A stretch of DNA of 64,000 nucleotides, from assembly GCA_965222855.1 (NCBI GenBank), contig CBDCUL010000007.1, positions 5,343 to 69,342 of the forward strand, written 5' to 3'. Position numbers and translations under genes: made by a program. Positions 5,924 through 61,479 of this stretch are shown in pieces (within the stretch, counting starts at the first letter, position 1; each line of letters opens with the position of its first letter). The notes beneath the pieces are model-generated. The model did not search any database, was not told the DNA's origin, and saw only the letters and a list, made by a program, of their open reading frames with translations. This DNA is from Mycoplasmatales bacterium (GTDB lineage: Bacteria > Bacillota_I > Bacilli_A > Mycoplasmatales > JABABV01).

Positions 5924-7480
5924 TTAAACTTGATAAAGACCATCATTAGTACTAGCGTATATTGTATTATCAATTTTTGTTATTCAATAAATTACAACAT
6001 TGGAAGGTATAGATGTGTTTTTGCTAAAAGTTTTACCATCATCAGTTGAAGTGTAAAGACCATCATCAGTAGTTGCGCATATTATATTATTGATTTTTGT
6101 TATTTTACTAATTTTGGCATCCGAAGGAATAGATTTATTTTGAATGAATATTTTACCATCATCAGTTGAAGTATAAAGGCCAGAATTAGCACCTACATAT
6201 ATTGTATTATCGATTTTTGTTATTTGGTTCATCCCAAATGCATCAAAATATTTATTTTTAGTGAAAGTTTTACCATTATTGGTTGAAATGTAAAGATCTG
6301 TTTTAGTATTAACATATATTCTATTATCAATTTTTGTTATTTTACTAATTTCAGCATCCGAAGGAATAGATATATTTTGGATAAAAGTTTTACCATCATC
6401 CGTTGAAATATAAAGGCCATAATAAAAAGTTGCAATAAATATTATTCTATTATCAATTTTTGTTATTTTACTAATTTCGGCATCTGAAGGCATAGATATG
6501 TTTTTACTAAAAGTTTTACCAGCATCAGTTGAAGTATAAAGACCAGCATAATCACTATTAATATATAATGTGTTATTGATTTTTGTTATTTCGTTAATTC
6601 CGGTATCTGAAGGTATCGATGTGTTTTTGCTAAAAGTTTTACCAGCATTAGTTGAAAAATAAAGGCCCATTCGAGTACAAACATATATTGTATTATCAAT
6701 TTTTGTTATTTCGTTAATTCCGGAATCCAAAGATATAGCTGTATTTTGGATAAAAGTTTTACCATCATCCGTTGAAATATAAAAACCTGTTTTAGTATTA
6801 ACATATATTCTATTATCAATTTTTGTTATTCAATAAATTACAACATTGGAAGATATAGATGTGTTTCGAGTAAAAGTTTTACCAGCATCAGTTGAAAGAT
6901 AAAGACCCATTCCAGTACAAACATATATTGTATTATCTATTTTTGTTATTTTGTTAATTCCGGAATCCGAAGATATAGCTGTATTTTGAGTAAAAGTTTT
7001 ACCATTATCCGTTGAAATATAAAGGATATTCCTATAAACTCCCGTTATAACATATATTGTATTATCTATTTTTGTTACTTGGTCAATCATTTTTGAATGT
7101 ATAAATGTATTTTTAATAAATTTATAATCTAAATCATCATTATATTTTCATTGATTCATATTATATTTGATATCATTATATTTAATCGTAAAAGACGCTA
7201 TCAAATTATATGCTGAATTAGTTATATTTACAGAAATTGTTTTCTTAGCATTATCGAACTCGAAATTAGCTAAAGATAATTGTGATGAGACATTATCTTT
7301 TCAATTTTGCATAGAACTACCTTTTATAATATCTTTTGATGAGTCGCTTGTTGCATCTTTTTTAAAATCTGCTCAAGATTCTTCAGATTTATGACTACAA
7401 CTAGTTAGAATCATAGTATTTAAAGCTATTGGTAAAATCACGCCAAAACTTATTAAACTTTTTTTAAATAATTTCTTCAT
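5924..7480 (-). CDS. BNR/Asp-box repeat (beta-propeller-like) lipoprotein, 518 aa
   Basis: Track ORFs 5984..6730 and 6830..7090 are in one frame with ATG 7480. The signal peptide ends in the lipobox ILTSC. There are about 11 repeats of ~40 aa, each with an Asp-box-like S-T-D-D/A-G-K-T-F and ITKIDNTIYV. Ends at TAA 5924..5926. Confidence 0.7.
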
Positions 7481-7572
7481 ATTAAACTCCTGTTTATTAT
7501 CGCTATTAAAATCACTATTGATTAAATAACATTATACAATATTTATTAATCTAAAAGTATTATTATTATTAT

Positions 7573-7947
7573 AAAATCTACCTCTTGGAAAATATCTTGC
7601 AAAAACCACTCAATTTCTTAGAGTTAATTAATTTTGAAATTTTGGAAGAAGCTAATATCGAATCAACTAGTTTTGAACTAGAATTAATCGAGATGAAATA
7701 CATTAATCAGTTTGATAGCATTTGACGTGGCTTTAATGGTTATCATGCAATTTATTTTAAGTTAAGTAATTGATTACAATATACTAAAAATAAAGATGAA
7801 GAAAATCACGTGAAAAAATTAATGAAAATAAATGAAGCAACAATTAAAGAATTAAGTAAATGTAAGGATACTTCTAAAATGTGATTATTATTTAATTTAG
7901 GTAGGAAAGCGGAATACGAAGTTCTTTTTAAAAAATATATGTTATAG
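7573..7947 (+). pseudogene. 5'-truncated copy of the 5265..5762 gene
   Basis: Collinear with codons ~45-165 of 5265..5762 (LENILQKPLNFLELINFEILEEA...), with the same TGA positions and ending TAG 7945..7947. The N-terminal part and any start context are missing. Confidence 0.5.
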
Positions 7948-8044
7948 ATAAAATAAAAAAATAAATAAAGAAATAATTCTTTATTTATTTTTTAGTTTTA
8001 CTATATTATAAATTATAAAATTAATAGATAATGATTTTAAAACA

Positions 8045-9361
8045 TTATCTTAAGTTATGAGTATTAAACTGATAAATACCATTAAATATAGTTAGGATAA
8101 ATATTGTATTATTGATTTTTGTTATTTGGCTAATGAAGGTTGAAGGTATAGATGGATTTTTGATCAAAGTTTTACCATCATCACTTGAATTGTAAAGACC
8201 AATATCAGTACCAATATATAATGTATTATCTATTTTTATTATTTGCTCAACTATCTCATCTGAAGATATAAATTTATTTAGGATGAAAGTTTTACCATCA
8301 TTAGTTAAAGTATAAAGACCATGATTAGTGCAAACATATATTGTATTATCGATTTTTGTTATTTGTAAAATTAGAGTATCTGAAGATATAGATGTATTTT
8401 GAGTAAAAGTTTTACCATCATTAGTTAAAGTATAAAGACCACGATTAGTGCAAACATATATTATATTATTGATTTTTATTATTTGGTCAATTTGGGTATC
8501 CGGAGGTGTAAATGTATTTTTGGTAAATATTTTACTATCATCACTTGAATTGTAAAGACCATTATTAGTGCAAACATATATTGTATTATCGATTTTTGTT
8601 ATTTTGGTAATTTTGGAATCCAAAGGTATAGATGTGTTTTTAGCAAAAGTTTTACCATCAGCACTGGAATTGTAAAGATTATGATTAGTGCAAACATATA
8701 TTGTATTATCAATTTTTGTTATTTGTAAAATTAGAGTATCTGAAGATATAGATGTATTTTGAGTAAAAGTTTTTCCATCATCCGTTGAATTGTAAAGACC
8801 ATGATTAGTGCAAACATATATTGTATTATTGATTTTTGTTATTTGGATAACTACAACATCCGAAGGAATAGATCTATTTTGAGTAAAGGTTTTAGCATCA
8901 TCAGTTAAAGTATAAAGACCATCGTGAGTACAAATATATATTATATTATCAATTATTGTTATTTGGATAACTGCAACATCCGAAGGTATCGATGTATTTT
9001 TACTGAATTTATTATCTAAATCATCATTATATTTCCATTGATTCATATTATATTTAATATCATTATATTTAATTGTAAAAGATGCTATCGAATTAGATGA
9101 TGAATTAGTTATTTCTACAGAAATTATTCTTTTAGTATTATCAACATTGAAATTACCTAAAGATAATTGTGATGATAGATTATCTTTTCACTTTTGCATA
9201 GAACTACCTTTTATAATATCTTTTGATGAGTCACTTGTTGCATCTTTTTTGAAATCTGCTCAGGATTCTTTATGACTACAACTAGTTAGAGCGATAGTAT
9301 TTAAAGCTATTGGTAAAATCACGCCAAAACTTATTAAACTTTTTTTAAATAATTTCTTCAT
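8045..9361 (-). CDS. BNR/Asp-box repeat lipoprotein paralog, 438 aa
   Basis: Track ORF 8045..9046 is in frame with ATG 9361. The first ~110 aa are near-identical to the 5924..7480 product, including the lipobox LTSC. About 8 repeats with STDDGKTF / ITKIDNTIYVCT. Confidence 0.7.
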
Positions 9362-9936: not shown

Positions 9937-11085
9937 ATGTTTAAAAATAAATTATTACGTATTGGGTCGGTTGGAATTATGAGTCTGGGACTACTTAGTA
10001 TTAGTGCTAGTGCGCTTGTGGCTTGTGGTCATAAAAAGCATACTCCATCAAAATATAATTGAACTACTTTTTTAGCGGCCGCTAAAAAAGCTAGTGCAGC
10101 TGAAATTGTTGCTCCAAATAAAACAGCAATTGGCTGAGGTGATGTCCCTAATGCACAATTAGTTAAACAAAAAGAACCCATCATTACTGATCATAATATT
10201 GTTGTCCAAATTTATGCTAATCCAATTTGAGAAATTGCCTCATTTTCAATTTCAGCACCAGTTGATTACCAATATGATGCCAATAGTTGAACATGCAGCA
10301 TCTACCCACGATTAGTTCCTAATGGAACCTGAGATCAGTTTAAATATTTGGCAACTAAAGTTAGTCCAAATGATTTACTAAAAACTGCTAAAGTTGCCAA
10401 AAATTATGCTTCTTTCAAATGAGTAGGTAAAGCAGATACTAACGTGTGACAAAAAGATCAAGTTGCTGAATTTGACACTTATGGTGGCGATGGCACTACT
10501 AAAGTTGACCCTGTTGATATTATGCAAGGTGCGCCTAAAATTGACGAAGCTAATAAAACAATTAGTGCCATCATTTCAATTAAAGATAAAACTAAAGAAG
10601 GTACTTGCTATAGCAATCCTATCAAAGCAGTCATTAAATATAATAATGGCAATAACTATAATCTAAATCAATGAGTATTTAGTAAAATCAAACAATTACA
10701 ATCATTTGTTAGATGAACAACAATGTGACAAGCTGGCGATAAGGCAGCTCATACAGTCCAATTCTCGACATTCATTAAGCGCTATTGAACTGATTCAAGT
10801 CATTCAATGAATACTTTTATTTGATTTTGAATCCATTGAGACAATCATGGTGCTATTGCAAGTTATAGTCGTCGTGGTTCTGGATGAGATTGAAATACTA
10901 AAAACGGGACAACATATGAAATTTGATTTTGAATTACAACTAACACCGGACCATTACCAACGCATAGTGAATTACATCTAAGATTTAATTTTATGTATAA
11001 CGATATTAGTAATCATAATATTGGAACAGCTTTTAATTATGTATTTGTTACTAATGGTGCGCTTGTTTATCCACTAATTAGTTAA
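9937..11085 (+). CDS. lipoprotein, tandem paralog 1 of 5, 382 aa
   Basis: GAGG RBS, ATG 9937, signal peptide with lipobox LVACG. The frame is open to TAA 11083..11085 only with many TGA read as Trp. Conserved core W-x-K-x(3)-AEFD-x-YGG...TISAIISIKDK...NPIKA. Confidence 0.7.
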
Positions 11086-11284
11086 ATATTTTTTGATGTT
11101 AATAAAGTCATTATAAATATAAAAAATTTTAAATAATTATTTAAAATTTTTTTATGCTTAATTTAATAATAAAACAAAATCACAACCTTAGTTGTTGTCA
11201 GTGTATTAGTTTGATAAAATAATAGTATATAACAACACTTTTAATAATTACTCATTTTATCGAAGAAACAATGAGGTTGAGTCG

Positions 11285-12421
11285 ATGTTTAAAAATAAAT
11301 TATTACGGATTGGGTCGGTTGGAATTATGAGTCTGGGACTACTTAGTATTAGTGCTAGTGCTGTTGTTGCTTGCGGTCATAAAAAACCAGGTTTAAAATA
11401 TAATTGAACTACTTTTTTAGCTGCCGCCCAAAAAGCGAGTGGTGCTGAAATTGTTGCTCAATACAAGCAAACAATTGGTTGATACGACGTTCCGAGCAAC
11501 AAACTAATTAAACAAAAACCCGAATTCATCACAGGTCACAGTATTACAATTCAAGTTTATGCTAGTTCAATTTGGGAAGTTGCTTCATTTTCGATTAGTG
11601 CACCCGTGGACTATAAATATAGCGCAATTAATTGAAAATTAAGTATTAAACCAAAATCTGTGCCAACTGGTAGCTGAGAGCAATTTAAATATTTAGCAAG
11701 GACAATCAATGCGGCAACTTTACTAAAAACTGCTAAAGTTGCCAAAAATTATGCTTCTTTCAAATGGGAAGGTAAAGCAGATAGCAATGTTTGAAAAAAG
11801 ACTGATATAGCTGAGTTTGATCAATTTGGTGGTAGTGGTGGGACTAAAGCTGACCCAATTAATGTTATGCAAGGTGCTCCTAAAATTGACGAAGTTAATA
11901 AAACAATCACTGCCATCATTTCAATTGAAGATAAAACTAAAGAAGGCACTTGTTTTAGCAATCCAATCAAAGCAGTTGCTAAATATAATAATGGTGAAAA
12001 TTATGATCTTAGTAAATGATCATTTAGCAAAGTTAATCAATTACAATCGCATGCTAAATGATTAAGTATTTTTGCTTTTGAATTAGGAAAATGAAATAGC
12101 CTTGATTTTGCTCCTTTTACTGCAAGATCTTGAACTGCTTCTAATCATATCAGCACTAGTAATGATTGATTTTATAGCAATTGACAATTTAACCCAATTA
12201 CTAGTGTTATAAGAAGTATTCATGGTTGAGATACAAATACACCAACAGCAATGATTTATGAATTTGGTTATGATGTTCATTATAATATTTGACTTCCAGC
12301 TACAGGTTCATTTCATATCAAATTTTTATTCACTTATTATAATGTAAAAAATCATAATGTTGGTAATGCGTATAATTATGTCTTTTCACCTGATAGCTCA
12401 ACATTAGTTTACCCAAGCTAA
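11285..12421 (+). CDS. lipoprotein, tandem paralog 2 of 5, 378 aa
   Basis: Nearly the same signal peptide as paralog 1 (MFKNKLLRIGSVGIMSLGLLSISASAVVACG). Continuous in code 4 to TAA 12419..12421. Confidence 0.7.
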
Positions 12422-12618
12422 ATCTTTGCATTTTTTTAACTATAATACACTAGTAATAAAAAAATTTAAATTAATAATTTAAATTTTTTTATTACTGCTC
12501 TTCACATTTAAAATCAAGTGCTTAGTTGTTGTTGCGATATTAGTTTGATAAAATAAGATTATGAAGTAACTAAATTAATTATAAATTATTTGGTGATTTA
12601 AAAAGCGAGGCTTGATCT

Positions 12619-13737
12619 ATGTTTAAAAAGCAATTTTTTAGAATTAACGCAACATCTTTAATTGCAATTGGCTCATTATTATTAGGTCTAAATAGTTTAG
12701 TATCTTGTGGTCACAAAAGTAAAAAAGCAACATTTGCGACATTTTTAGCTGCTGCTGAAGCTACTTCGGCAGCAGCAATTGTTAATAACGCTAATCCAGA
12801 AGCAATCGCGTGACATAAAGTGAAACTTAATGATTTATTCAAACAAGGAAAACCAGTTATCATTGGCGAAACTATTACTCAACAAATTTATGCTGGCTCA
12901 ATTGGTGAAGTTGCTAAGTTTGAAATTAGTCCATCATATGATTATGTATATCGACTAAGATATTGAGGATGTGTTAAACAACCAAAATTTGAACCTGATG
13001 GGACGTGATTTCAATTTAAAACATTATCATTAATGGCAACAGCAGAGCAGCTTTTAAAAGCTGCTAGATTAGCAACTAATTGGTCTTCTTTTAAATGACA
13101 AGGACAGCCCCGTCTTAATGTGTGACAAAAATCTGAAAAAGCTGAATGAGATATTTATGGTGGCGCAGGTACTCGTGATGATCCACTTAATCTAATGCAT
13201 GGTCGCCCAGTAGTTGATGAAGTTAAACAAACAATTAGTGCGATCATTTCAATTAAATATGATGATAAAAAAGGTTGTTATGATGCTGATCCAATTAAAG
13301 CAATCATTCAATATACTCCCCATCTAAATTATCATATTAATTTATGAAAATTTAGTAAAATTAAACAAATTCAATCAATTGATAAATATAATCAAATTTT
13401 TAAAAATGAAGTTATTGCTGCAGATGATTTTCCAGATTTTGGTTCTAATAATTGAACTGATGAATCGCATATCTTAGATGCTTATCATTATTTATATAAC
13501 AATCAGCGTGATTTTGGAACAATTGCAAAAATTACATTTGATAGCGCTAGTTTTGTATCGGCTAATGATTATGGGATTACGAAACAAATTGTTTTCAACG
13601 TGAAAGCCAGTTGAGTTAATGTCCAATTCCGCCTCCGATTAACTTTTAGCTTTGTAAATGTTAATAATCAAAGAATTGGGTATGCATTTAATTATGTCTT
13701 TCCCGAAACTGACGCAATCATCATTATCGATAACTAA
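12619..13737 (+). CDS. lipoprotein, tandem paralog 3 of 5, 372 aa
   Basis: Track ORF 12619..12813 extended through TGA codons to TAA 13735..13737. Lipobox LVSCG and the same conserved core. A 19-bp perfect hairpin overlaps the stop. Confidence 0.7.
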
Positions 13738-13864
13738 ATATCATTCTGCAATTAAATGATATTTAGTTATCGACTATTAGTTTGATAAAATAATATTATA
13801 TATATAATATAAAACAAAAAAGATTATTGAAAATTATTTATTATTCAACAGCGAGGTAGAAACG

Positions 13865-15028
13865 ATGTTTAAAAATAAATTGTTTAAAATTAGCTTAGCA
13901 TCAATCGTGATTAGCGGTAGTATTGTTGCGGGATTAGGTAGTATATTTAGTCTTGTATCGTGTGGTCATAAAAGTAACCCACCAATAGCTGATTGAAATA
14001 GTTTTTATAAACAAGCTATCAATGAATCAACAATCAATATTATTAATAATGCTAATCCTTTAACAACTAAAGGTTGAAAAGATGATTATGAACCAGCTGA
14101 TTTTACAGCTGATAAGCCAATTGTTGTTAAGCAGACAATTTCAATTGTCATTCATGCTGTGCTATTAAAACAATTTGCCACTTTTCAAATTAGAGCATCA
14201 TCTGACTTTATTTATAATGTGAAAAGTTGAGAATGTATCAAACAACCACAATATAATGACAAAGCAGTTTGAGATTTCTTTAAAATAAGCGCGACCGCCG
14301 AAAGTGCTCCTAAATTATTAGTGCAAGCTAAGACATCACAATCTTGAAATAGTTTTAAATGAGACGGTGATGCTAGTATTAATGTTTGACAAAAATCTGA
14401 TCAAGCTGAATTTGATGTATATGGTGGTCTTGGTCAACACAATGACCCGCTTAATCTAATGCGTGGCTTTCCTAGTTTTGATGAAATTAATCACACTGTA
14501 AGTGCAATTATTTCAATTAAAGATAAAAATGGCACTTATGATGCTAATCCGATTAAAGCCACAATTAAGTTTGATACTTTAATTAATAAAAAATATTCTA
14601 TTGAAGATTGAACATTTAGTCAAGCAACTCAATATCAGTCATGAGAGAAAAATCAAGCCATTTTTAATAGTCAAGTTACTATCGCTAAAAATGATATTAA
14701 AAAATTTCAAAGTCATACTTGAGATAATCAAGACCATAGTGAAGATGCGCAAGCTTTTTTAAAAACTATTGGTTTACCTGGGATTACTAGAATTTTAACT
14801 TTTAAAAGTTCTGAAGTTAATTTTCAAATTGATTCATCAGGAATAACTTCGGTAATTGTTCTTAATGTTAAAGATCAATTTAACCATATGTTAGCAGAGT
14901 TTGATGTAAAATATACTTTTAAATTTAGAGATCCAAGTAAAAGTACGACTACCGGGAGCGCCTTTAATTATATCTTTGATACTCATAATAGTGTTCATCC
15001 GACTCATAAGCAACATTTTAAAATTTAG
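13865..15028 (+). CDS. lipoprotein, tandem paralog 4 of 5, 387 aa
   Basis: ATG 13865, lipobox LVSCG, family core (AEFDVYGG..., TVSAIISIKDKNG), TAG 15026..15028. Confidence 0.65.
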
Positions 15029-15046
15029 AACACGAGGTTAGAAATA

Positions 15047-16237
15047 ATGTTTAAAAATAAATATTTTAAATTAGGAAGTATTTCAACTATGGCTATTGGT
15101 CTAAGTGTTGGCGGGAGTGTTGCTTTTGTATCTTGTGGTCATAAGCACAAAGCAACGTTCGGAACGTTCGGAACATTCCAAACTGCAGCATTAAAAGAGA
15201 ATGTTGCTAATATTGTTAAGAATGCCAAAGTTAAAGCAAGTAGTTGAGTTGGATTTAAAGATGATGATTTTACTAAACAAGGGCTCCCAACAATTGAAGG
15301 TCACAAAATCACAATTAAAATTTATGCCAAATCCAACTGAACAATTGCTTCTTTTTCAATAACTGCTCCTGCTAATAATGTCTATCGTGTTGGTGATTGA
15401 GAATGTAGCAACCAACCAGCATTAGTACCAAATGGAACATGAGAGCAATTTAAAACACTAGCTTTAGCCGAAACACCAACCAACCTCCTAAGCACTGTTA
15501 AAAAAGTACCAAATTATAAAAAAAATTTTAAATGAGATGGTGATGCTAATATTAATGCTTGAGCCGAAAATGCGATCCCAGAATTTGATGTATATGGTGG
15601 TAGTGGTACTACTGGAGATCCATTAGATGTGATGCATGGACAGCCTTTAATTGATCAATCTAAGCAAACAGTTACTGCTATTATATCAATCAAAGATAGC
15701 ACTAAAGAGGGCTTATATGATGCTGATCCAATCAAAGCAGTTATTAGATATACTAATAACGTAAACTACCATGTTAGTGATTGAATCTTCACTCCAATAG
15801 TTCAGAGTCAATCATTCATTAAATATAAATCAATTTTTGAAACTGAAATTGCTGTTGCTAAAGCTGTGAGTAAAGACACTTTTGATAGTTTCGGAAGTCA
15901 TAATTGACTTGGAAATCTTTCGCAAATGCCGAATGGTCACAATAGTGTTTCCTTGATAACTCATAATGATCACAGTACGACTGCTACTGATTTTTTATCG
16001 GGAGCTGGGTTTTTTTCAGTAATTGATGATCGGAGATTTAATCGTGTCGATGATTTTACTACTATTCAAGGTGGTTTAATTTCTGCTATTGTATTTGATA
16101 TAATTACTGGAGTTGGTGAAAAAGATGGTCAATTTCGCCTAGTATTTACTTTTAAATTTGTTGATGATAACCATCATATTGGAATGGCTTTTAATTATTT
16201 ATTTCCGAAAGCTCATGCTTTATATTTTACTAATTAA
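15047..16237 (+). CDS. lipoprotein, tandem paralog 5 of 5, 396 aa
   Basis: Track ORFs 15047..15247 and 15926..16237 share one frame. Lipobox FVSCG. Starts 18 nt after paralog 4 with a GAGG RBS. Confidence 0.65.
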
Positions 16238-16396: not shown

Positions 16397-16840
16397 ATGG
16401 ATAAATATACAAATGCGATTTGCTTGTTTAATCAATTAGTGGCAAAAAGAAAACGCCACATTAAAAAATTACTATGTGAATTTGATTTATCAGCATTGCA
16501 AGGTAAAATTATTTATTTATTAGCTCACAGCGAAAAACATAAACAAAAAGTTAATGCAATTGCGCAAGAATATAGCCTAGATTATGGCCAACTATCACGC
16601 GCAATTACAAAAATGGAAAAAGACAAGGTCATTTTTTTTCAAAATGACCTTGAAGATAAGCGTCAAAAATATATTGTCTTGAATAAAGAATCACTAATTG
16701 TCAAAAGTTTTAAAGCAAAATTTTGAGAACAATTTAATAGTGAATTCCGCAGCTTAGATCAAAATGAGATTATTATTTTTGAAAAACTTTTACAAAGGAT
16801 GGTGAATAGTGATGACTCAATTAACCAAAAAACAAATTAA
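16397..16840 (+). CDS. MarR-family transcriptional regulator, 147 aa
   Basis: Winged-helix-like region (VNAIAQEYSLDYGQLSRAITKMEKDKVIFFQNDLEDKRQKYIVL). Read-through of TGA 16724..16726 gives TAA 16838..16840, overlapping the next gene by 29 nt. Confidence 0.6.
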
Positions 16841-18563
16841 AACAAATCGTGCCCATTATATGTTTGGCGAGATGAAAGTGCCAAAAGCAATTTTAAAAAT
16901 TGGAATCCCCTCAATTATCGGGATGTTAGTGATGGGATTATATACTTTCTTTGATTCGTTTATGGCACAAAGATTATTATCGAGTGAAGGTTATTCAATT
17001 GGGATAGCTTCTTCGAAAATTAATCCAATCGTAACCGGATTAATGTCATTTGGATTTTTATTTGCCTTAGGGGGCGCAACGCGATTTAGCGTTGCCCTCG
17101 GTCAAAAAAATCCCGAAAGGCAAAAAGAAATTGCCGCATGATCATTTTTCGTTGGATTTGTTGTAGTTATTTTAATTACTTTAATTACAAAATTTTCATT
17201 GAATGCAATTTGACGTGCCCAAGCAATTTCATCTAACGATCCAGCAATCGTTAATTATGCAATTCCTTTTCTAAATATTTATTTATGAGGAAGTATTATC
17301 CAGTTCGTCTTTATGTTTTTTACTAACTTCTTACGAAGTGATGGTTTAAACGGTGTCGCAGCTGGAGCTTATATTTTATCTTCAGTTGTTAATATATTTT
17401 TAGATTGAATCTTTATGAGTCCCCATATTGCCGCAATGGGTTATAAAGGAGGCGCCCTAGCTACTACTCTAGCTTGAGTAGTAGGTCTAGTTTACGTCTT
17501 ATTCTTCTATTTTAGAAATATTCGCCATGGGGGTCATTTTATTATTCACCCCAAATATTTACGTGGTGGTAAAAAAATTATTTTATTAGTTATGTTAATT
17601 GGACTAACACCATTTGCACGAAATTTTGGTGGCTCAATTACTTCAACTGTGGGAAATCATTTCTTATCTAATTTACCATCCCATCCAATTAATTGGGATG
17701 CCAATGCAATTCAGCAATGAATTGCAGGTATAAAAGCCCATGGTGGGTGAAGTGCGATTCCAGCATCCTTCCGGACTTTCTTAGAATCGCATGGAATTCA
17801 CAATATGAATGAGTTGACCGTTAATAGTTTAGAGGCTGTCCTCCAGCAAAGTTTCGGTAGTCAATATTGACAACGTTTATTTGCTGGAGTAATGCCAATG
17901 TTAATGCTGTTCTTTATGCCGTCATTTGGAATTATTCAAGCATCTCGAGGCTTGATTGCTTACAATTACGGTGCTAAAAATAAAGAACGTGTTATTCAAG
18001 GTGTTTGATGAACTATCATGATGGCAGTATCTTACTTCATTTTAGCAACAATTGTTATTATGTTAGCAGGTCATGCAATCGCCGCTGGCTTCAACGTTAC
18101 TAATAATGCGACAGTTGGAATTTTAGTTAATGGTCATATGTTAACACTTGGTTCAATGCCAACGCTAGGTAACGATGTTCAAAAAGTTATTTACATTATG
18201 TTTTGATCATTACCAGTTTATGGGATTCAATTTGGAGCAATGACTTTCTTCCAGTCAACTAACCGAATTGTTTGATCAACATTTATGGCACTTCTAAGAG
18301 GGGTTATTATTGAAATTCCTTCACTATTCTTACTATCTAGTCTAGCGCATCATTACAATGATGCTTGACTATACTTCTGAGGCTATCCAGTAATGGATGT
18401 TGTTTCAACACTAATCACCATTCCGATTATGTTTTGAGCACTTCATCAACTTAAAGTTAATGGCTTTAAAAAAGATATGGATGAAGAAGCTAATATGAAC
18501 GTGTACAAAGAAGAAAAAATTGAAGAAGTTGACGAATTTGCTTTAAAAATTAAAGCAACTTAA
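16812..18563 (+). CDS. MATE-family multidrug efflux transporter, 583 aa
   Basis: Track ORFs 16809..17141 and 18018..18206 are in one frame, with many TGA-Trp and about 12 hydrophobic segments. MATE-like N-terminus (KILKIGIPSIIGMLVMGLYTFFDSFM). TAA 18561..18563. Confidence 0.6.
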
Positions 18564-18661
18564 AAGACTTTTATAAGTTTATTAATATAAAAAATAACTA
18601 ATCATTAATTAGTTATTTTTTTTAATATCAAAATTTATTTTCATTATTTTAAATAATAACA

Positions 18662-18758
18662 TTGTAATTTGTTTTTATCTATGTTAATATAGTGGTGCGT
18701 CATTGTGCCAAAAGTGGCGCATCAGAGTTTGTGGACTCTTTAAAACCCACTTTTTTTT
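18662..18758 (+). ncRNA. candidate small RNA minigene, copy 1 (promoter + hairpin + terminator)
   Basis: TTGTAA-17 nt-TAATAT (18662..18690), then UGGUGCGUCA-loop-UGGCGCAUCA (a 10-bp stem), then GTGGA..CCCAC plus T8 ending at 18758. Confidence 0.45.
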
Positions 18759-18790
18759 ATGCACTATATTTATTATTTATGATAAAGATA

Positions 18791-18887
18791 TTGTAATTTA
18801 TTTTTATCTGTGTTAGTATGGTGGTAAGCTATTCTTTTAAAGATGGTGACTTGGAAGTTTGTGGGGCCTTTAAAACCCACTTTTTTT
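18791..18887 (+). ncRNA. candidate small RNA minigene, copy 2
   Basis: TTGTAA-17 nt-TAGTAT (18791..18819), a ~60-nt body homologous to copies 1 and 3, then GTGGG..CCCAC plus T7 ending at 18887. Confidence 0.45.
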
Positions 18888-18996
18888 ATGCGCTATTTAT
18901 AATTTTGATCACTTTTATTATTAAAATATAACAGGTTGATATTATCGTATAATCATCAAATTTTGAATTATTTTTTATTTATTGTAAAAAAACCTA

Positions 18997-19094
18997 TTGT
19001 AATTTATTTTTATCTGTGTTAGTATGGTGGTAAGCCATTTTATTAAAGGTGGCGACTCGGAAGTTGTGGGACTCTTTTCAAACCCACTTTTTTT
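18997..19094 (+). ncRNA. candidate small RNA minigene, copy 3
   Basis: TTGTAA-17 nt-TAGTAT (18997..19025), a homologous body, then GTGGG..CCCAC plus T7 ending at 19094. Confidence 0.45.
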
Positions 19095-19161
19095 ATGCAG
19101 ATATAGCACTAATTTAAAATTGATCATTATGATGAATTAGTCGAAAAAAAATAACTAATAA

Positions 19162-20892
19162 TTAATTAGTTATTTTTTTTAATGAGGGAACTTTCTTTTC
19201 AATTTTTCATTTACTAATTTTATTAATGCGTTCTTGAATAATTGATGTTAAAATTTTATACGCACTTTCATCAATTTTAGTAACACTAGTTTGTAATTTA
19301 TCAGCTTCTTTTTGAATTGTTTCAACTTGACTTTTAATTTTATTAAAAGTATCTTTTAATAAAGTCTCTTTGAAATTTTCGAAATCACGAATGATTTGTT
19401 CTTTATTTTCTAGATCGATTGTTTCTTTAGTTAAATCATAGCGTTTTAGTGCAAACTCTTTAACTAAAGATAAGAAAGTAATGAAATATTGTGGTCTAAT
19501 AATAAAGATATTTTTATATTCAGGATTGTTTACTTTTGAGACTAAGAAATCTTGAGTATTCATTTCTAACTCCGAAATTAATAATCCATATTGACCATCA
19601 AAGTTAATACGATCTTCATTTAGTTTAGCTAAATGATCGCTGTTCTTTTTCCGATTACTATCTTTACTAAACATGCTTTCACTTTTAGCTTCAATAATAA
19701 CACGCGTAATTACTTGACCAGCATCGTTATTAACAACGAATTCAAAGTCTGGTTTTTTACCTTTGATTGCTTTGTTTGTTTTTGATAATGGACAATTATC
19801 GAATTGAAAAGAATATCTTTTATATTCTTCTTCAATTCAATTTTCTAAATCTTCACCAATAACTTTAATGCTCATTGCTTGACGCTGACGAGTTAAGTCA
19901 TTATATTTTTTATCAATTGCATCTTTGTCGGCTTTTTGCTGATTAAATAATAAACTATATTTTACTTCCGCAGCAGTTTCACTTTCAGTTTTAATAGCTG
20001 TTAGTTTTTGATTTAATACTGCATCATATTGTTGTTTTAATTCTTGTTCTTTAGAAATTAGTGCTTTTTGACTATTTAATATTTCTTGATTACGGATTGT
20101 TTGAACCTCAGAATTTAATTTAGAAATTTGATCACGATATTCTTTATTGATTCTATTTTCATTATTTGATAATTTTGTATCAAAATTATTTTGAGCAATT
20201 TTGTTAGCTTGCGTTAATTCAAAATTAGTATTTTTTAACGTTTGTAACGCTTGGTCATTAGCTAATTCTGTGCGTTGTTTAATTGTTTTTATTTCTGAAG
20301 TTAAATCATTAATTTGATCGCGGTATTTTTCATTAATTTTATTTTCATTATCTTTTAATCTTGTTTCAAAATTATTTTTATTCATTGTATTTGTTTGTGA
20401 TAATGTAAATTTATCATTTTTTAAACCTTGGACAACTGTTTCGTTTTCTAATTGAGTTTGTTGTTTAATAGTTTCAATTTGTGAATTTAATTTAGAAATT
20501 TTATCAAGATATTGTTGGTTAATTTTATTTTCATTATTTGATAATTCTGTATCAAAATGATTTTGAGCAATTGTTATTTTTTGTGATAATTCAAATTTTT
20601 CTTGCTCTAAATCAGTAATTTTTATATTATATTTTTCTTTCATATCAGCTGCTTGTTTACTTAGTGCTGATTCTTGAATAGCACTAGCTTCACTATTTAA
20701 TTCTTGGCGAAGTTCTGCTTTCATAATGTTACGTTGTGCTTCATTGATTTTTTCAATATTAGCATACACAATTGATAAATCAACTGTAGTAGCATCGTTA
20801 ATTGCAATAATATCGCCTTTAGAACCATCTTCTTCTAAGACGTATTCTAAATTATTAGCATCGCTTAAACTAATGCGGAGTTTTTTAGCCAT
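19162..20892 (-). CDS. DUF2130/RmuC-like protein: long coiled coil plus C-terminal PD-(D/E)xK nuclease-like domain, 576 aa
   Basis: Track ORFs 19837..20946 and 19207..19674 join in frame through TGA, and the frame continues past TGA 19207 to TAA 19162..19164. IGEDLENW...KPDFEFVV...VIIEAKSE fits a D...ExK nuclease core. ATG at 20892 (MAKKLRISL). Confidence 0.6.
20040..20562 (-). repeat. about three in-frame 186-nt (62-aa) tandem repeats in the coiled-coil region
   Basis: NHFDTELSNNENKINQQYLDKISKLNSQIETIKQQTQL... / NNFETRLKDNENKINEKYRDQINDLTSEIKTIKQRTEL... / NNFDTKLSNNENRINKEYRDQISKLNSEVQTIRNQ... Confidence 0.6.
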
Positions 20893-21050
20893 AATTTTCA
20901 CTTCTTTCTTTTTCAATTTCACGTTTGGTAAATAAAATATTAACATAAAAATTGCATAAAAAGTAAAATAAAAATTATTTTATTACTTCCTTAGTTGTGC
21001 TATCATTTTTATTATGAAACAATCTTATTTCAAAGGAGTGAAATAAACAT

Positions 21051-22158
21051 ATGAATAATTATCTAATGCTCGTTATTATTGTTGCTTTATTAATTATTTT
21101 TGGCGGATTCATTTTTTATTTAAATTATAAAAATTTTCAAAAAATGAATGCTTTAAAAATTAATCAGCAACCAATCATAAAATCTGATAACAATAATAAC
21201 CAACAACAAATCGAAAAATTAATTAAAGATTTTGCTACTAATAATCAACAAAATAATTTTGAAAAAAGTAATTTAATGGCGCAAGCTAAAATTAGTGAAA
21301 ACAACTTACGTAATAAAATTAGTGAAATTGAAAAATTAACTAACATGCTTAATAACCAAAAAAGCGATTTAACAAAATCACATAATAAAGTTAAAGAGAT
21401 TAGTGAAAAATATGCAATTTTAGATCGTCAAAAATCACGTCTAACTGTTAAAGAAATTGGTGAAAATTTAGAAAATTGAATTTTAAAAGAATATGCGAAA
21501 CATTCTTATTCATTTACTAATGCCCCACTTACAAAAACTAATAAAACAATTTTAGGCACTAAACCAGATTTCCAATTCATCGTTAACGATGAATTGGACC
21601 ACACCCAATTACTAAAGTCATTATTGAGGCGAAATCACAACGTGATTACGCCAGCAATTCTCCTGGTCAAAGGAATGTTACTCATTTAGAAAAATTAGGC
21701 CGTGACGCCCGTAATTTCAATGCTGACTATGCAATCTTAGTATCAGAATTAGAACTAGTTCAAGATGATTTCTTAATTAAAAAAGTTAATGATCAAAATT
21801 TCAAAAACATGTTCATTATTCGACCGCATTATTTTATTTGCGTTTTTAAACATTGTTCACTTTTGTGCATTGAAACGCCAACACATTGAAAAACGTGATA
21901 TTAAATTACAAGACAAACAAATGATTTTACAAGAGTTTCAAATTTTCAAAGATGGGATTTTCAAAAGATTTTAATAATAATATTAAAAATAATGTTGATA
22001 CGATTTTAAAATCAGCTAATGATATTAAAGTTAAAGCCCAAATTATTGAAAATCGCTCTAATAAAATATTAGATAATATTTTATATCAAATTGAAAACAA
22101 AGTTAAGCGCTACAGCATTGAAAAGCAAGTGCCGACTTTGAAAAAAATAACTAATTAA
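21051..22158 (+). pseudogene. decayed DUF2130/RmuC-like paralog with at least 3 frameshifts
   Basis: Homology to the 19162..20892 product hops between the three forward frames: IGENLENW..KPDFQFIV, then VIIEAKSQRDYASNS..IIRPHYF, then FAFLNIVHFCALKR..FKDGIF, then KDFNNNIKNN..EKQVPTLKKITN*. The coiled coil is much shorter. Confidence 0.6.
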
Positions 22159-22229
22159 AAAATAAGTATAAAAAAACAACTAATCAAATGAGATTAGTTG
22201 TTTTTTATTTTTTAATTAAATATTGAATA

Positions 22230-60916: not shown

Positions 60917-61232
60917 AATTATTAAAACCACTTCCTTAATGTCGTTATAAAAAAATATTAGTTTTTAAATTGGTTATAAAATAAAAAAACATATCAATTT
61001 ATGTTGATATGTTTTTTTACTTTTTAATTTACAATATTTTAATAGCAATATTTATTAAAGTTGTTGTTTTTAAGATTAATTATTTTTCAATGTTAATAAG
61101 TGTTTTTAGTTTATTTATTCCTAATACAATCGTTATTATAACACGATTGTATTCGGAAATAACATAAATTATTAGATTTTTTTATGAACCTGATATAATA
61201 AGTCACCAAAATTAAAAATGAGCATAAAAAAA

Positions 61233-61309
61233 TGGCACCCTCGGAGGGATTTGAACCCCCGACCACATGCTTAGAAGGCACGTGCTCTATCCAACTGAGC
61301 TACGAGGGC
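61233..61309 (-). tRNA. tRNA-Arg (anticodon UCU), CCA encoded
   Basis: The reverse complement GCCCTCGTAGCTCAGTTGGATAGAGCACGTGCCTTCTAAGCATGTGGTCGGGGGTTCAAATCCCTCCGAGGGTGCCA folds as a cloverleaf: 7-bp acceptor, D arm GCTC/GAGC, anticodon loop CTTCTAA, T arm GGGGG/CCCTC. Confidence 0.85.
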
Positions 61310-61327
61310 ATTTAAGCCACAGAGAGA

Positions 61328-61355
61328 ATTATACAATAAATTGTAATATTTTCAA
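61328..61355 (-). promoter_or_regulatory. promoter of tRNA-Arg (TTGAAA-16 nt-TGTATAAT)
   Basis: On the minus strand, -35 TTGAAA (61350..61355) and an extended -10 TGTATAAT (-10 hexamer at 61328..61333), about 19 nt upstream of the mature 5' end. Confidence 0.55.
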
Positions 61356-61479
61356 AGGATAAATTACTTAATATAGCGTAATTTAGACAATCTTTAGTTA
61401 AAAAATAGCAAAGTTAAACTCACTAATTAGCAATTAGTGAGTTTTAACAATTAATAATTCTTCTAATTTAATTTAATTA

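What the first reader, a model, noticed from the sequence alone, without database searches (positions are those of the whole stretch)
18662..19094. Three tandem promoter-hairpin-terminator minigenes in a convergent intergenic gap: candidate sRNA family
Between the 3' ends of the MATE gene and the DUF2130 gene lie three homologous ~97-nt units, starting at 18662, 18791 and 18997.

Each unit has a well-spaced promoter (TTGTAA, exactly 17 nt, then TAATAT or TAGTAT). A ~60-nt body follows, and then a GC-rich stem (GTGGG/CCCAC) with T7-T8. The GC content of that stem stands out in this AT-rich DNA. No gene follows any unit, so they are not leaders or riboswitches of a downstream ORF.

The body can form a 5' hairpin at a conserved position, and the base changes preserve pairing: GUC/GGC, GCU/GGU and GCC/GGC, with a fully paired 10-bp stem in copy 1. 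I do not recognise the sequence as any known RNA family.
Basis: partly seen in the sequence, partly recalled or inferred. Interest (0 to 1): 0.7.

Follow-up and report, generated by a model that had tools for sequence, protein, structure and literature searches.

The report
Tandem tRNA-derived small-RNA-like units
Three repeated about 97-base units between two converging Mycoplasma-type genes look like tiny RNA genes, but they are found only in this lineage and are probably decayed tandem copies of the genome's own tRNA-Arg gene region, not an established regulatory RNA family.

Summary
Three homologous units lie at 18662-18758, 18791-18887 and 18997-19094. Each has TTGTAA, 17 nt, TGnTA(A/G)TAT, a G+C-rich body with a 5' hairpin, then GTGG(G)/CCCAC and T7-T8. 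No gene follows any unit.

The "new sRNA family" reading is only partly supported.
- Nothing matches in Rfam, or in the genome, metagenome, viral, phage and plasmid collections searched.
- Three related genomes (MATE nucleotide identity 77-80%) lack the block at the same junction. The closest has a single shared terminator in a 23-nt gap.
- In the window, that terminator is duplicated on both sides of the block.
- Reciprocal searches of the 64-kb window link the units, mainly unit 2, to the only tRNA gene present, tRNA-Arg(UCU). The similarity is collinear through the upstream region, T-loop remnant, T7+ATGC and about 45 nt downstream. That downstream flank is specific to this lineage.

The promoter-like, GC-rich and terminator-like features are therefore probably inherited from a duplicated tRNA transcription unit. 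The units are no longer tRNAs. There is no conserved ORF and no convincing target.

One result argues against pure decay. Units 2 and 3 are identical in the promoter and terminator blocks (0/61) but differ at 13/44 body positions, and the hairpin is kept. Transcription and function are untested.

The parts
18589..18626 (.). Term-L: 38-nt AT-rich palindromic (bidirectional) terminator just after the MATE stop codon. It is a direct repeat of Term-R.
   Evidence: D2: 97% identical to 19146-19183; I3 palindrome; only these two copies in the window.: -10.0 kcal/mol.
18662..18758 (+). Unit 1. TTGTAA 18662-18667; TG + TAATAT 18685-18690; 5' hairpin about 18694-18723; GTGG 18731-18734 / CCAC 18747-18750; T8 18751-18758. 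This is the most diverged copy.
18791..18887 (+). Unit 2. TTGTAA 18791-18796; TAGTAT 18814-18819; hairpin core 18828-18833 / 18842-18847; GTGGG 18861-18865 / CCCAC 18876-18880; T7 18881-18887. This copy and its flanks (about 18770-18960) are the most similar to the tRNA-Arg cassette.
18997..19094 (+). Unit 3. TTGTAA 18997-19002; TAGTAT 19020-19025; hairpin 19034-19041 / 19046-19053; GTGGG 19066-19070 / CCCAC 19083-19087; T7 19088-19094. It keeps TTCAAACCC, which resembles the tRNA T-loop TTCAAATCC.
19146..19183 (.). Term-R: second copy of the palindromic terminator. One arm encodes the last codons (LKKITN*) and the stop codon of DUF2130 on the minus strand. It corresponds in position to the single terminator of the closest relative.
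   Evidence: -12.6 kcal/mol.
61150..61400 (-). tRNA-Arg(UCU) transcription unit (tRNA 61233-61309, TGTATAAT promoter upstream, T7+ATGC and 3' flank downstream). This is the proposed source of the units.
   Evidence: for the gene. for similarity to the units. for orthologous tRNA-Arg cassettes in three relatives.

Best explanation
The three units are paralogous, heavily diverged copies of this genome's own tRNA-Arg(UCU) transcription unit: upstream region, RNA body, U-tract and about 45 nt of 3' flank.

Proposed history (inferred):
- In this lineage only, a copy landed in the bidirectional terminator shared by the converging MATE and DUF2130 genes.
- That terminator is now present on both sides of the block.
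- The copy was then amplified in tandem.

The copies are no longer tRNAs. The cloverleaf is gone. The 3' acceptor strand and the tRNA's TGTATAAT -10 box appear deleted.

- a G+C-rich body in AT-rich DNA;
- a short GC stem, which is a remnant of the variable loop and T-arm;
- a T7-8 tract followed by ATGC.

A usable promoter (TTGTAA-17-TGnTAGTAT) may have been re-formed from the tRNA's upstream and leader sequence. If so, the units could still give RNAs of about 60 nt with a 5' hairpin. I judge them to be young relics or, at most, nascent RNA genes, not an established regulatory RNA family.

What is shown and what is inferred:
- Shown: the repeat anatomy, its absence from three relatives, the duplicated terminator, and the reciprocal best match to the tRNA cassette.
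- Inferred: the direction and mechanism of the duplication, and any transcription.
For: (1) Restricted to this lineage.
- In the closest relative (MATE protein 86% identical), MATE and DUF2130 are separated by 23 nt holding one palindromic terminator.
- A second relative has a 334-nt gap with no unit. A third has PTS and GH38 genes inserted.
- A unit HMM finds nothing in 127 kb from the three relatives.

(2) The block is bracketed by two 38-nt terminator copies that differ at one base.

(3) Link to the tRNA cassette.
- The unit HMM's best non-self hit in the window is the 3' end and downstream flank of tRNA-Arg (E = 0.12).
- The tRNA cassette's only non-self nhmmer hit is unit 2.
- Unit 2 plus flanks against the cassette scores 93, against 40.6 +/- 5.2 for 300 dinucleotide shuffles (maximum 60). 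Unit 3 scores 54 against 35.5 +/- 4.8 (0/300).
- Against 1,256 real windows of the same DNA, the cassette is the top hit for unit 2: 94 against 74 for the next, and 44.9 against 34.9 bits with composition-aware scoring.
- The only tRNA cassette is about 0.2% of the search space.

(4) The match is collinear and in register.
- ATATT(GT/AC)AATTTATT upstream.
- TCTGTG..TTA in the leader.
- GTG.CTT..AAG..TGTG, then TT(C/T)AAA.CCC (T-loop).
- T7+ATGC directly after the RNA.
- ATTT.TAATTTTG.T.ACTT.TTAT...CAGGTT downstream.

(5) Timing and direction. tRNA-Arg(UCU) with TGTATAAT and a T-run plus TATG is conserved next to the same phosphoesterase gene in three relatives. Their further 3' flanks differ from the window's flank, which is the one unit 2 resembles. 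This places the copying after the split from the relatives.

(6) No tRNA call by ARAGORN or Rfam. No Rfam family at E <= 10 except two chance hits.
Against: Weaknesses in the tRNA link:
- By HMMER's own statistics the similarity is weak: E = 0.12 and E = 1 after a 13-bit composition correction.
- It rests mainly on unit 2 and its flanks. Units 1 and 3 alone do not rank the cassette first (ranks 14 and 33).
- A majority consensus of the units does not improve the match (rank 3).
- Body-only global alignment to the tRNA is marginal: p = 0.016, 0.15 and 0.46. The body could be unrelated to the tRNA.

Evidence against simple decay:
- Units 2 and 3 have 0/61 differences in the promoter and terminator blocks but 13/44 in the body (Fisher p = 4e-6). 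The blocks have sharp edges at the -35 motif and just after the T-run.
- The 5' hairpin, which is not a tRNA feature, is kept in all three units.
- A promoter with ideal spacing and TGn is present in all three units.
- Three copies persist in a small genome.

A data gap: the rest of this genome could not be searched. The genome-contig scan did not return even the window's own copies.
Confidence: 0.55

Rival explanations
1. Functional sibling sRNAs. Whatever their origin, the three units are expressed from their own sigma-70-type promoters as RNAs of about 58-62 nt: a 5' hairpin, a G/U-rich linker and a U-tailed hairpin. They would act in trans, by base pairing (for example through the CU-rich terminator loop CCUUU/CUCUUU against purine-rich ribosome-binding sites) or by titrating a protein that binds the repeated GUGG motifs.
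For: - Promoter and terminator blocks are identical between units 2 and 3 while the body differs by 30%. Conservation starts at the -35 motif and stops after T7+ATGC.
- The hairpin is kept in 18/18 cells with wobble-compatible changes, and is extended to 11 bp in unit 1 by changes on both arms.
- G+C content is in the top 0.6-2.5% of intergenic windows.
- The motif combination is unique to these three sites.
- There is no ORF constraint.
Against: - Absent from three related genomes at the same site and from 127 kb of their DNA. No homologue anywhere else searched.
- The body, where a seed region would lie, is the least conserved part.
- No extended complementarity to anything in the 64-kb window (best 12-13 nt, E > 0.1).
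- The promoter matches only 8/12 consensus positions in DNA where such matches are common.
- Terminator hairpins are weak with 10-12-nt loops.
- Units 2 and 3 fold no better than shuffles.
- High G+C content is expected anyway if the body derives from a tRNA.
Confidence: 0.25
2. An independent small-RNA cassette unrelated to the tRNA. On this reading the similarity to the tRNA-Arg region is a chance or low-complexity effect, or reflects only a shared intergenic flank repeat. The body would be a new RNA of unknown origin, possibly acquired horizontally.
For: - nhmmer E-values are 0.12 and 1.
- Body-only alignment is not significant for units 1 and 3.
- The consensus does not improve the match.
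- AT-rich windows reach scores of 74 by chance.
Against: - The reciprocal best hit falls on the single tRNA cassette, about 0.2% of the search space. It is on the correct strand and in register with the RNA 3' end and the T7+ATGC.
- There is a 10-bit margin over the next window.
- TTCAAACCC sits where the T-loop would be.
- No foreign source was found in phage, plasmid, viral or metagenome collections.
Confidence: 0.12
3. Small-protein or type I toxin-like minigenes. Each unit would encode a 34-38-aa peptide on the + strand with a hydrophobic tail, or a peptide on the - strand.
For: ORFs of 34, 37 and 38 aa start at the same point in all three units. Tandem intergenic duplication is typical of type I toxin-antitoxin loci (my own knowledge, not tested).
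Against: - The start codon lies inside the -10 box, with no ribosome-binding site.
- Between units 2 and 3 there are 6 non-synonymous and 1 synonymous changes in 15 codons, and then the frames diverge.
- The hydrophobic tail is encoded by the T-run and by non-homologous spacer.
- Minus-strand ORFs use different frames in different units.
Confidence: 0.03
4. A cis-acting element or DNA-level repeat. Candidates are a leader or attenuator left behind by a deleted gene, a transcriptional insulator between converging genes, or a MITE-like or recombination-site repeat.
For: - This junction is rearranged in every related genome.
- The block is flanked by 38-nt direct repeats.
- In unit 1, the GTGG/CCAC stem competes with an AGAGUU/GACUCU hairpin, which resembles an attenuator.
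Against: - No gene follows any unit.
- No similarity to the leader of the PTS gene that occupies this junction in one relative, nor to the marR-MATE promoter region.
- No terminal inverted repeats or transposase. No other copies in the window.
- No riboswitch or leader family in Rfam.
Confidence: 0.05

Closest known systems
tRNA pseudogenes and tRNA-gene remnants produced by segmental duplication
   Same: - Collinear similarity to a genuine tRNA gene including its flanks.
- Loss of the cloverleaf.
- Restricted to one lineage.
- G+C-rich relic in AT-rich DNA.
   Different: - Three tandem copies.
- The body has diverged more than the flanks.
- A new long 5' hairpin and a re-formed promoter-like motif are shared by all copies.
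- The promoter and terminator blocks look constrained.
Tandem 'sibling' sRNA genes, each with its own promoter and terminator (for example LhrC1-4 of Listeria, PrrF1/2 of Pseudomonas, OmrA/B of E. coli). Cited from my own knowledge, not tested here.
   Same: Head-to-tail paralogous units of about 100 nt in an intergenic region. Each has promoter-like and terminator-like signals and no ORF.
   Different: - Known siblings keep a conserved single-stranded seed and are conserved across species. Here the body is the most variable part and no relative has the units.
- Expression is unknown.
sRNAs that arise from degraded genes or from tRNA transcription units (for example pseudogene-derived enterobacterial sRNAs, or the 3'ETS-leuZ sponge cut from a tRNA precursor). 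Cited from my own knowledge.
   Same: New small RNAs can be born from relics of other genes and from tRNA operon sequence. They are young, fast-evolving and lineage-specific.
   Different: - 3'ETS-leuZ is processed from a functional tRNA operon. These units are free-standing copies with no tRNA.
- No transcript or target is known here.
Eukaryotic tRNA-derived SINEs
   Same: Repeated elements whose core descends from a tRNA gene and no longer folds as a tRNA.
   Different: SINEs spread by retrotransposition using internal Pol III promoters and are dispersed. Here there are three adjacent DNA-level duplicates in a bacterium, including tRNA flanks that a retro-copy would lack.

Membership tests
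tRNA (Rfam RF00005) | Cloverleaf with a 7-nt anticodon loop, a T-loop and an acceptor stem, detectable by ARAGORN or the Rfam tRNA model | tested here: not met
   ARAGORN finds only tRNA-Arg at 61233-61309. Rfam gives no tRNA hit in 18550-19200 even at E <= 10. In the alignments the 3' acceptor strand is missing.
tRNA-derived relic (pseudogene-like copy of the tRNA-Arg cassette) | Significant, collinear similarity to a genuine tRNA gene including its non-coding flanks | tested here: inconclusive
   Met for unit 2: score 93 against 40.6 +/- 5.2, top of 1,256 windows, 44.9 against 34.9 bits, and a reciprocal best hit. HMMER E-values are only 0.12 and 1. Units 1 and 3 are not individually significant.
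tRNA-derived relic (pseudogene-like copy of the tRNA-Arg cassette) | The source gene is ancestral and the copy is absent from the orthologous site in relatives | tested here: met
   tRNA-Arg(UCU) is syntenic in three relatives. The block is absent from the MATE/DUF2130 junction in all three.
Independent bacterial sRNA gene | Functional promoter | tested here: inconclusive
   TTGTAA-17-TGnTA(A/G)TAT is conserved in all three units. It matches only 8/12 consensus positions and is not called by the consensus scan, which finds such sites at or below shuffle frequency in this DNA.
Independent bacterial sRNA gene | Intrinsic terminator (stable GC hairpin with a short loop, then a U-tract) | tested here: inconclusive
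   A U7-8 tract is present. Stems are 4-5 bp with 10-12-nt loops, at -3.6, -8.1 and -6.5 kcal/mol. The scan calls none.
Independent bacterial sRNA gene | A discrete transcript of the predicted size | not testable with these tools
   No expression data are available.
Independent bacterial sRNA gene | Conservation and covariation across species | tested here: not met
   No homologue in relatives or collections. Among the three paralogues there are only one-sided changes and no double compensatory change in the core hairpin.
Riboswitch or cis-regulatory leader | A downstream gene in cis, and a match to a known aptamer or leader family | tested here: not met
   No ORF follows any unit. There is no meaningful Rfam match.
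Type I toxin-antitoxin or small-ORF gene | A conserved small ORF under purifying selection with translation signals | tested here: not met
   6 non-synonymous against 1 synonymous change, frame loss after codon 14, start codon inside the -10 box, and inconsistent minus-strand frames.

The most novel reading that the evidence does not exclude
A duplicated tRNA-Arg transcription unit has been converted into a small family of new, expressed RNAs of about 60 nt in a genome-reduced Mollicute. On this reading the promoter was rebuilt after the tRNA's -10 box was lost. A new 5' hairpin replaced the D and anticodon arms. The body then diversified quickly under selection while the promoter and terminator stayed fixed. 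That would be sRNA gene birth from a tRNA gene, caught at an early stage.
Probability: 0.2. Interest if true: 0.6.

Novelty: new member of a known kind. Interest (0 to 1): 0.3.

Why it matters
If the units are relics, the result is a caution for sequence-only ncRNA discovery in AT-rich genomes. High G+C content, a hairpin, a T-run and a promoter-like motif can all be inherited from a decayed tRNA copy.

It also documents a recombination-prone junction at a shared bidirectional terminator. That junction differs in each of four related genomes.

If the units are expressed and functional, they would be a rare, datable example of a bacterial sRNA family arising from a tRNA gene duplication. The source gene would still be present in the same genome for comparison.

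Tried and rejected
- Rfam at gathering and at E <= 10: only two chance hits, NCRUPAR_1 and Ysr35.
- Genome contigs pattern scan: 109 hits, none from Mollicutes, and all of pattern length only. It did not return the window's own copies, so this genome is not in that collection.
- Metagenome and viral scans: 0, 42 chance hits and 0.
- Phage and plasmid BLAST: nothing meaningful.
- DUF2130 homologues as a route to relatives: the loci fetched, chosen among hits 31-43% identical, looked from their gene content like unrelated Firmicutes-type contigs. Exact look-ups of the window's own proteins were not on record. MATE homologues did find relatives.
- Homology to the PTS leader that occupies this junction in relative L114: none.
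- A shared operator with the marR-MATE promoter: none seen.
- Antisense targets in the window: best 12-13 nt, not significant.
- Peptide hypothesis: rejected.
- Extending the tRNA homology through the downstream spacer to Term-R (a Term-like AAAAAAATCTAATAATTTATGTTATTT lies after the tRNA): collinear but weak, 20.2 bits against a null of 13.5 +/- 2.5 and a top of 33.6. I keep it only as an idea for how ectopic recombination placed the copy.
- Consensus of the three units against the tRNA cassette: no gain.
- H-type pseudoknot (S1 AGAGU/ACUCU or GGAAG/CUUUU; S2 GUGG(G)/CC(C)AC): drawn by hand and possible in all three, but not testable with the tools available.
- RNAalifold instead proposes a 5' GUGG / 3' CCAC closing stem. 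That stem would need a transcription start only 2 nt after the -10 box, which is unlikely.

Full report
**Context**

The window is Mollicutes-type DNA. It has 28.8% G+C, and long ORFs appear only when TGA is read as Trp. There are many lipoprotein paralogues. A marR-like gene and a MATE efflux gene (16764-18563, +) converge on a DUF2130 gene (19162-20946, -). The finding lies in the 598-nt gap between them.

**Observation**

The three units are real and sit at the stated coordinates.
- Each has TTGTAA, exactly 17 nt, then TAATAT or TAGTAT. Each also has TG one base before the -10 hexamer.
- That motif combination, and the GTGG-N8-16-CCAC-T5 combination, occur only at these three sites in 64 kb. 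Expected counts are 0.04 and 0.01.
- T-runs are T8, T7 and T7.
- Bodies are 42-48% G+C against 21.6% for intergenic DNA. Among clearly non-coding DNA only the tRNA gene is higher.
- A 5' hairpin is predicted in all three. Its six core pairs are kept in all 18 cells, against 33-72% when the partner strand is slid.

Limits of this evidence:
- The hairpin changes are all one-sided wobble changes, and the shuffle control is uninformative.
- Only unit 1 folds better than shuffled sequence: z = -2.8, against 0.06 and -0.96 for units 2 and 3.
- The promoter matches 8 of 12 consensus positions and is not called by the consensus scan. In this AT-rich DNA the scan finds no excess over shuffles.
- The GC stems are 4-5 bp with 10-12-nt loops, at -3.6, -8.1 and -6.5 kcal/mol. 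The terminator scan calls none of them.
- AAAGGUGG is paired in the hairpin, not exposed.

**Surroundings**

The block is bracketed by two copies of a 38-nt AT-rich palindromic terminator, at 18589-18626 and 19146-19183. The copies differ at one base. One arm of the right copy encodes the last codons and the stop codon of DUF2130.

**Comparison with relatives**

MATE homologues led to three related genomes. MATE protein identity is 86% and 78% for two of them. Nucleotide identity is 77-80% for all three.
- Closest relative (L113): MATE and DUF2130 are 23 nt apart and share one palindromic terminator. That terminator again carries the DUF2130 stop codon.
- Second relative (L157): a 334-nt gap with no unit.
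- Third relative (L114): PTS and alpha-mannosidase genes are inserted at the junction.

A unit HMM finds nothing in 127 kb from these genomes. Rfam, a pattern scan of 185,579 species genomes, JGI metagenomes, IMG/VR, phages and plasmids all gave nothing beyond chance. The window's own genome is not in the genome collection, because the scan did not return the window's own three copies. Other copies in this genome therefore cannot be excluded.

The block is specific to this lineage. The junction is a rearrangement hot spot.

**Origin**

The unit HMM's best non-self hit in the window was the 3' end and downstream flank of the only tRNA gene, tRNA-Arg(UCU) at 61233-61309 on the minus strand (E = 0.12). 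I followed this up.
- Unit 2 with its flanks aligns collinearly to the tRNA cassette with a score of 93, against 40.6 +/- 5.2 for 300 dinucleotide shuffles (maximum 60). Unit 3 scores 54 against 35.5 +/- 4.8 (0/300). Unit 1 scores 47 (p about 0.03).
- Against 1,256 real windows of the same DNA, the tRNA cassette is the top hit for unit 2: 94 against 74 for the next window. With composition-aware scoring it is 44.9 against 34.9 bits, with a mean of 16.7 and an SD of 3.6.
- In the reverse direction, the cassette's only non-self nhmmer hit is unit 2.

The alignment is in register with the gene's anatomy:
- ATATT(GT/AC)AATTTATT upstream;
- TCTGTG..TTA in the leader;
- part of the anticodon arm and TGTGG of the variable region;
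- TT(C/T)AAA.CCC where the T-loop lies;
- T7+ATGC immediately after the RNA;
- about 45 nt of 3' flank.

In the three relatives, tRNA-Arg(UCU) sits next to the same phosphoesterase gene and shares the TGTATAAT promoter and the T-run plus TATG. Their further 3' flanks differ from the window's flank, which is the one unit 2 resembles. This places the copying inside this lineage and gives its direction, from tRNA locus to units.

Caveats on the tRNA link:
- HMMER's own E-values are weak: 0.12, and 1 after a 13-bit bias correction.
- Units 1 and 3 alone do not rank the cassette first.
- A consensus of the units does not help.
- Body-only alignment is marginal: p = 0.016, 0.15 and 0.46.

I put about 70% on derivation from the tRNA-Arg locus. 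I put somewhat less on the body itself being tRNA sequence.

**What the units are now**

They are not tRNAs. Relative to the tRNA, the alignments show three differences:
- a 6-7-nt gap that removes the TGTATAAT -10 box;
- an 11-13-nt gap that removes the 3' acceptor strand;
- a new long hairpin where the D arm and the 5' side of the anticodon arm were.

If the promoter works, it was re-formed after the duplication.

No ORF is conserved on either strand. Between units 2 and 3 there are 6 non-synonymous changes and 1 synonymous change, followed by frame loss. No complementary target exists in the window.

**An unexplained point in favour of function**

Units 2 and 3 are identical over 41 nt (from 2 nt before the -35 motif to about +10) and over 20 nt (AAACCCAC-T7-ATGC). 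They differ at 13 of the 44 body positions between those blocks (Fisher p = 4e-6). Sequence outside the blocks is also diverged.

By my own reading of the alignment, at four of the positions in the hairpin and linker where units 2 and 3 differ, unit 2 carries A or T where units 1 and 3 share G or C. That fits AT-biased decay of unit 2. Neutral drift alone still does not explain two sharp identical blocks. The cause is either selection on the expression signals or gene conversion.

**Verdict**

- Most likely (about 0.55): these are young, tandemly amplified, decayed copies of the tRNA-Arg transcription unit, lodged in a duplicated terminator. They may still be transcribed but are not an established sRNA family.
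- Functional tRNA-derived sibling sRNAs remain possible (about 0.2-0.25). That would be the interesting case.
- Peptide, leader and mobile-element readings are unlikely.

Interest is modest until expression data exist.

Noticed in passing
window 21051-22160 (+): A second DUF2130 paralogue lies head-to-head with the intact one and is interrupted, apparently by frameshift. Its C-terminus ...VPTLKKITN* repeats the ...VPSLKKITN* end of the intact gene, whose last codons form one arm of the palindromic terminator.
   Followed up: partly
window 19162-20946 (-), repeats at 20111-20598: DUF2130 here is 594 aa (576 aa from the likely MAKKL start), against 368-388 aa in the two closest relatives. The extra length comes from 186-nt tandem repeats (2.6 copies), which I read as an expansion of the coiled-coil N-terminal part.
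   Followed up: partly
L113:11768-11790; L157:11768-12101; L114:11693-17123: The MATE/DUF2130 junction differs in all four related genomes: a single shared terminator, a 334-nt insert that seems to hold a duplicated fragment of the DUF2130 3' end, a PTS + GH38 alpha-mannosidase insertion, and the three-unit block. It looks like a recombination hot spot at a bidirectional terminator.
   Followed up: partly
window 39687-60916 (compare L158-L160: 10481-12000): In the relatives the tRNA-Arg gene is followed directly by greA and a ferritin/Dps gene. In the window, about 20 kb of lipoprotein paralogues with internal tandem repeats lies between the tRNA and the ferritin gene. Repeat periods are 21/42/63, 33, 288 and 303 nt.
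   Followed up: no
window 5933-9000 (-) and 9937-16237 (+): There are two further lipoprotein families. One is two genes with 120-nt internal repeats. The other is five tandem MFKNKL... paralogues, and it sits directly upstream of marR-MATE where the relatives have thiamine-salvage genes.
   Followed up: no
window 61222-61232 (-); L158, L159, L160 just after tRNA-Arg: A T-run followed by TATG directly after the CCA end of tRNA-Arg(UCU) is conserved in all four related genomes. This suggests the tRNA's own acceptor/T-arm helix plus the U-tract serves as its terminator.
   Followed up: partly
window 61160-61190 (-): About 45 nt downstream of tRNA-Arg lies AAAAAAATCTAATAATTTATGTTATTT. It resembles the Term-L/Term-R palindrome (AAAAAAATAACTAATAATTAATTAGTTATTT). 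The similarity is weak (20 bits, not top-ranked), but it could have mediated ectopic recombination.
   Followed up: partly
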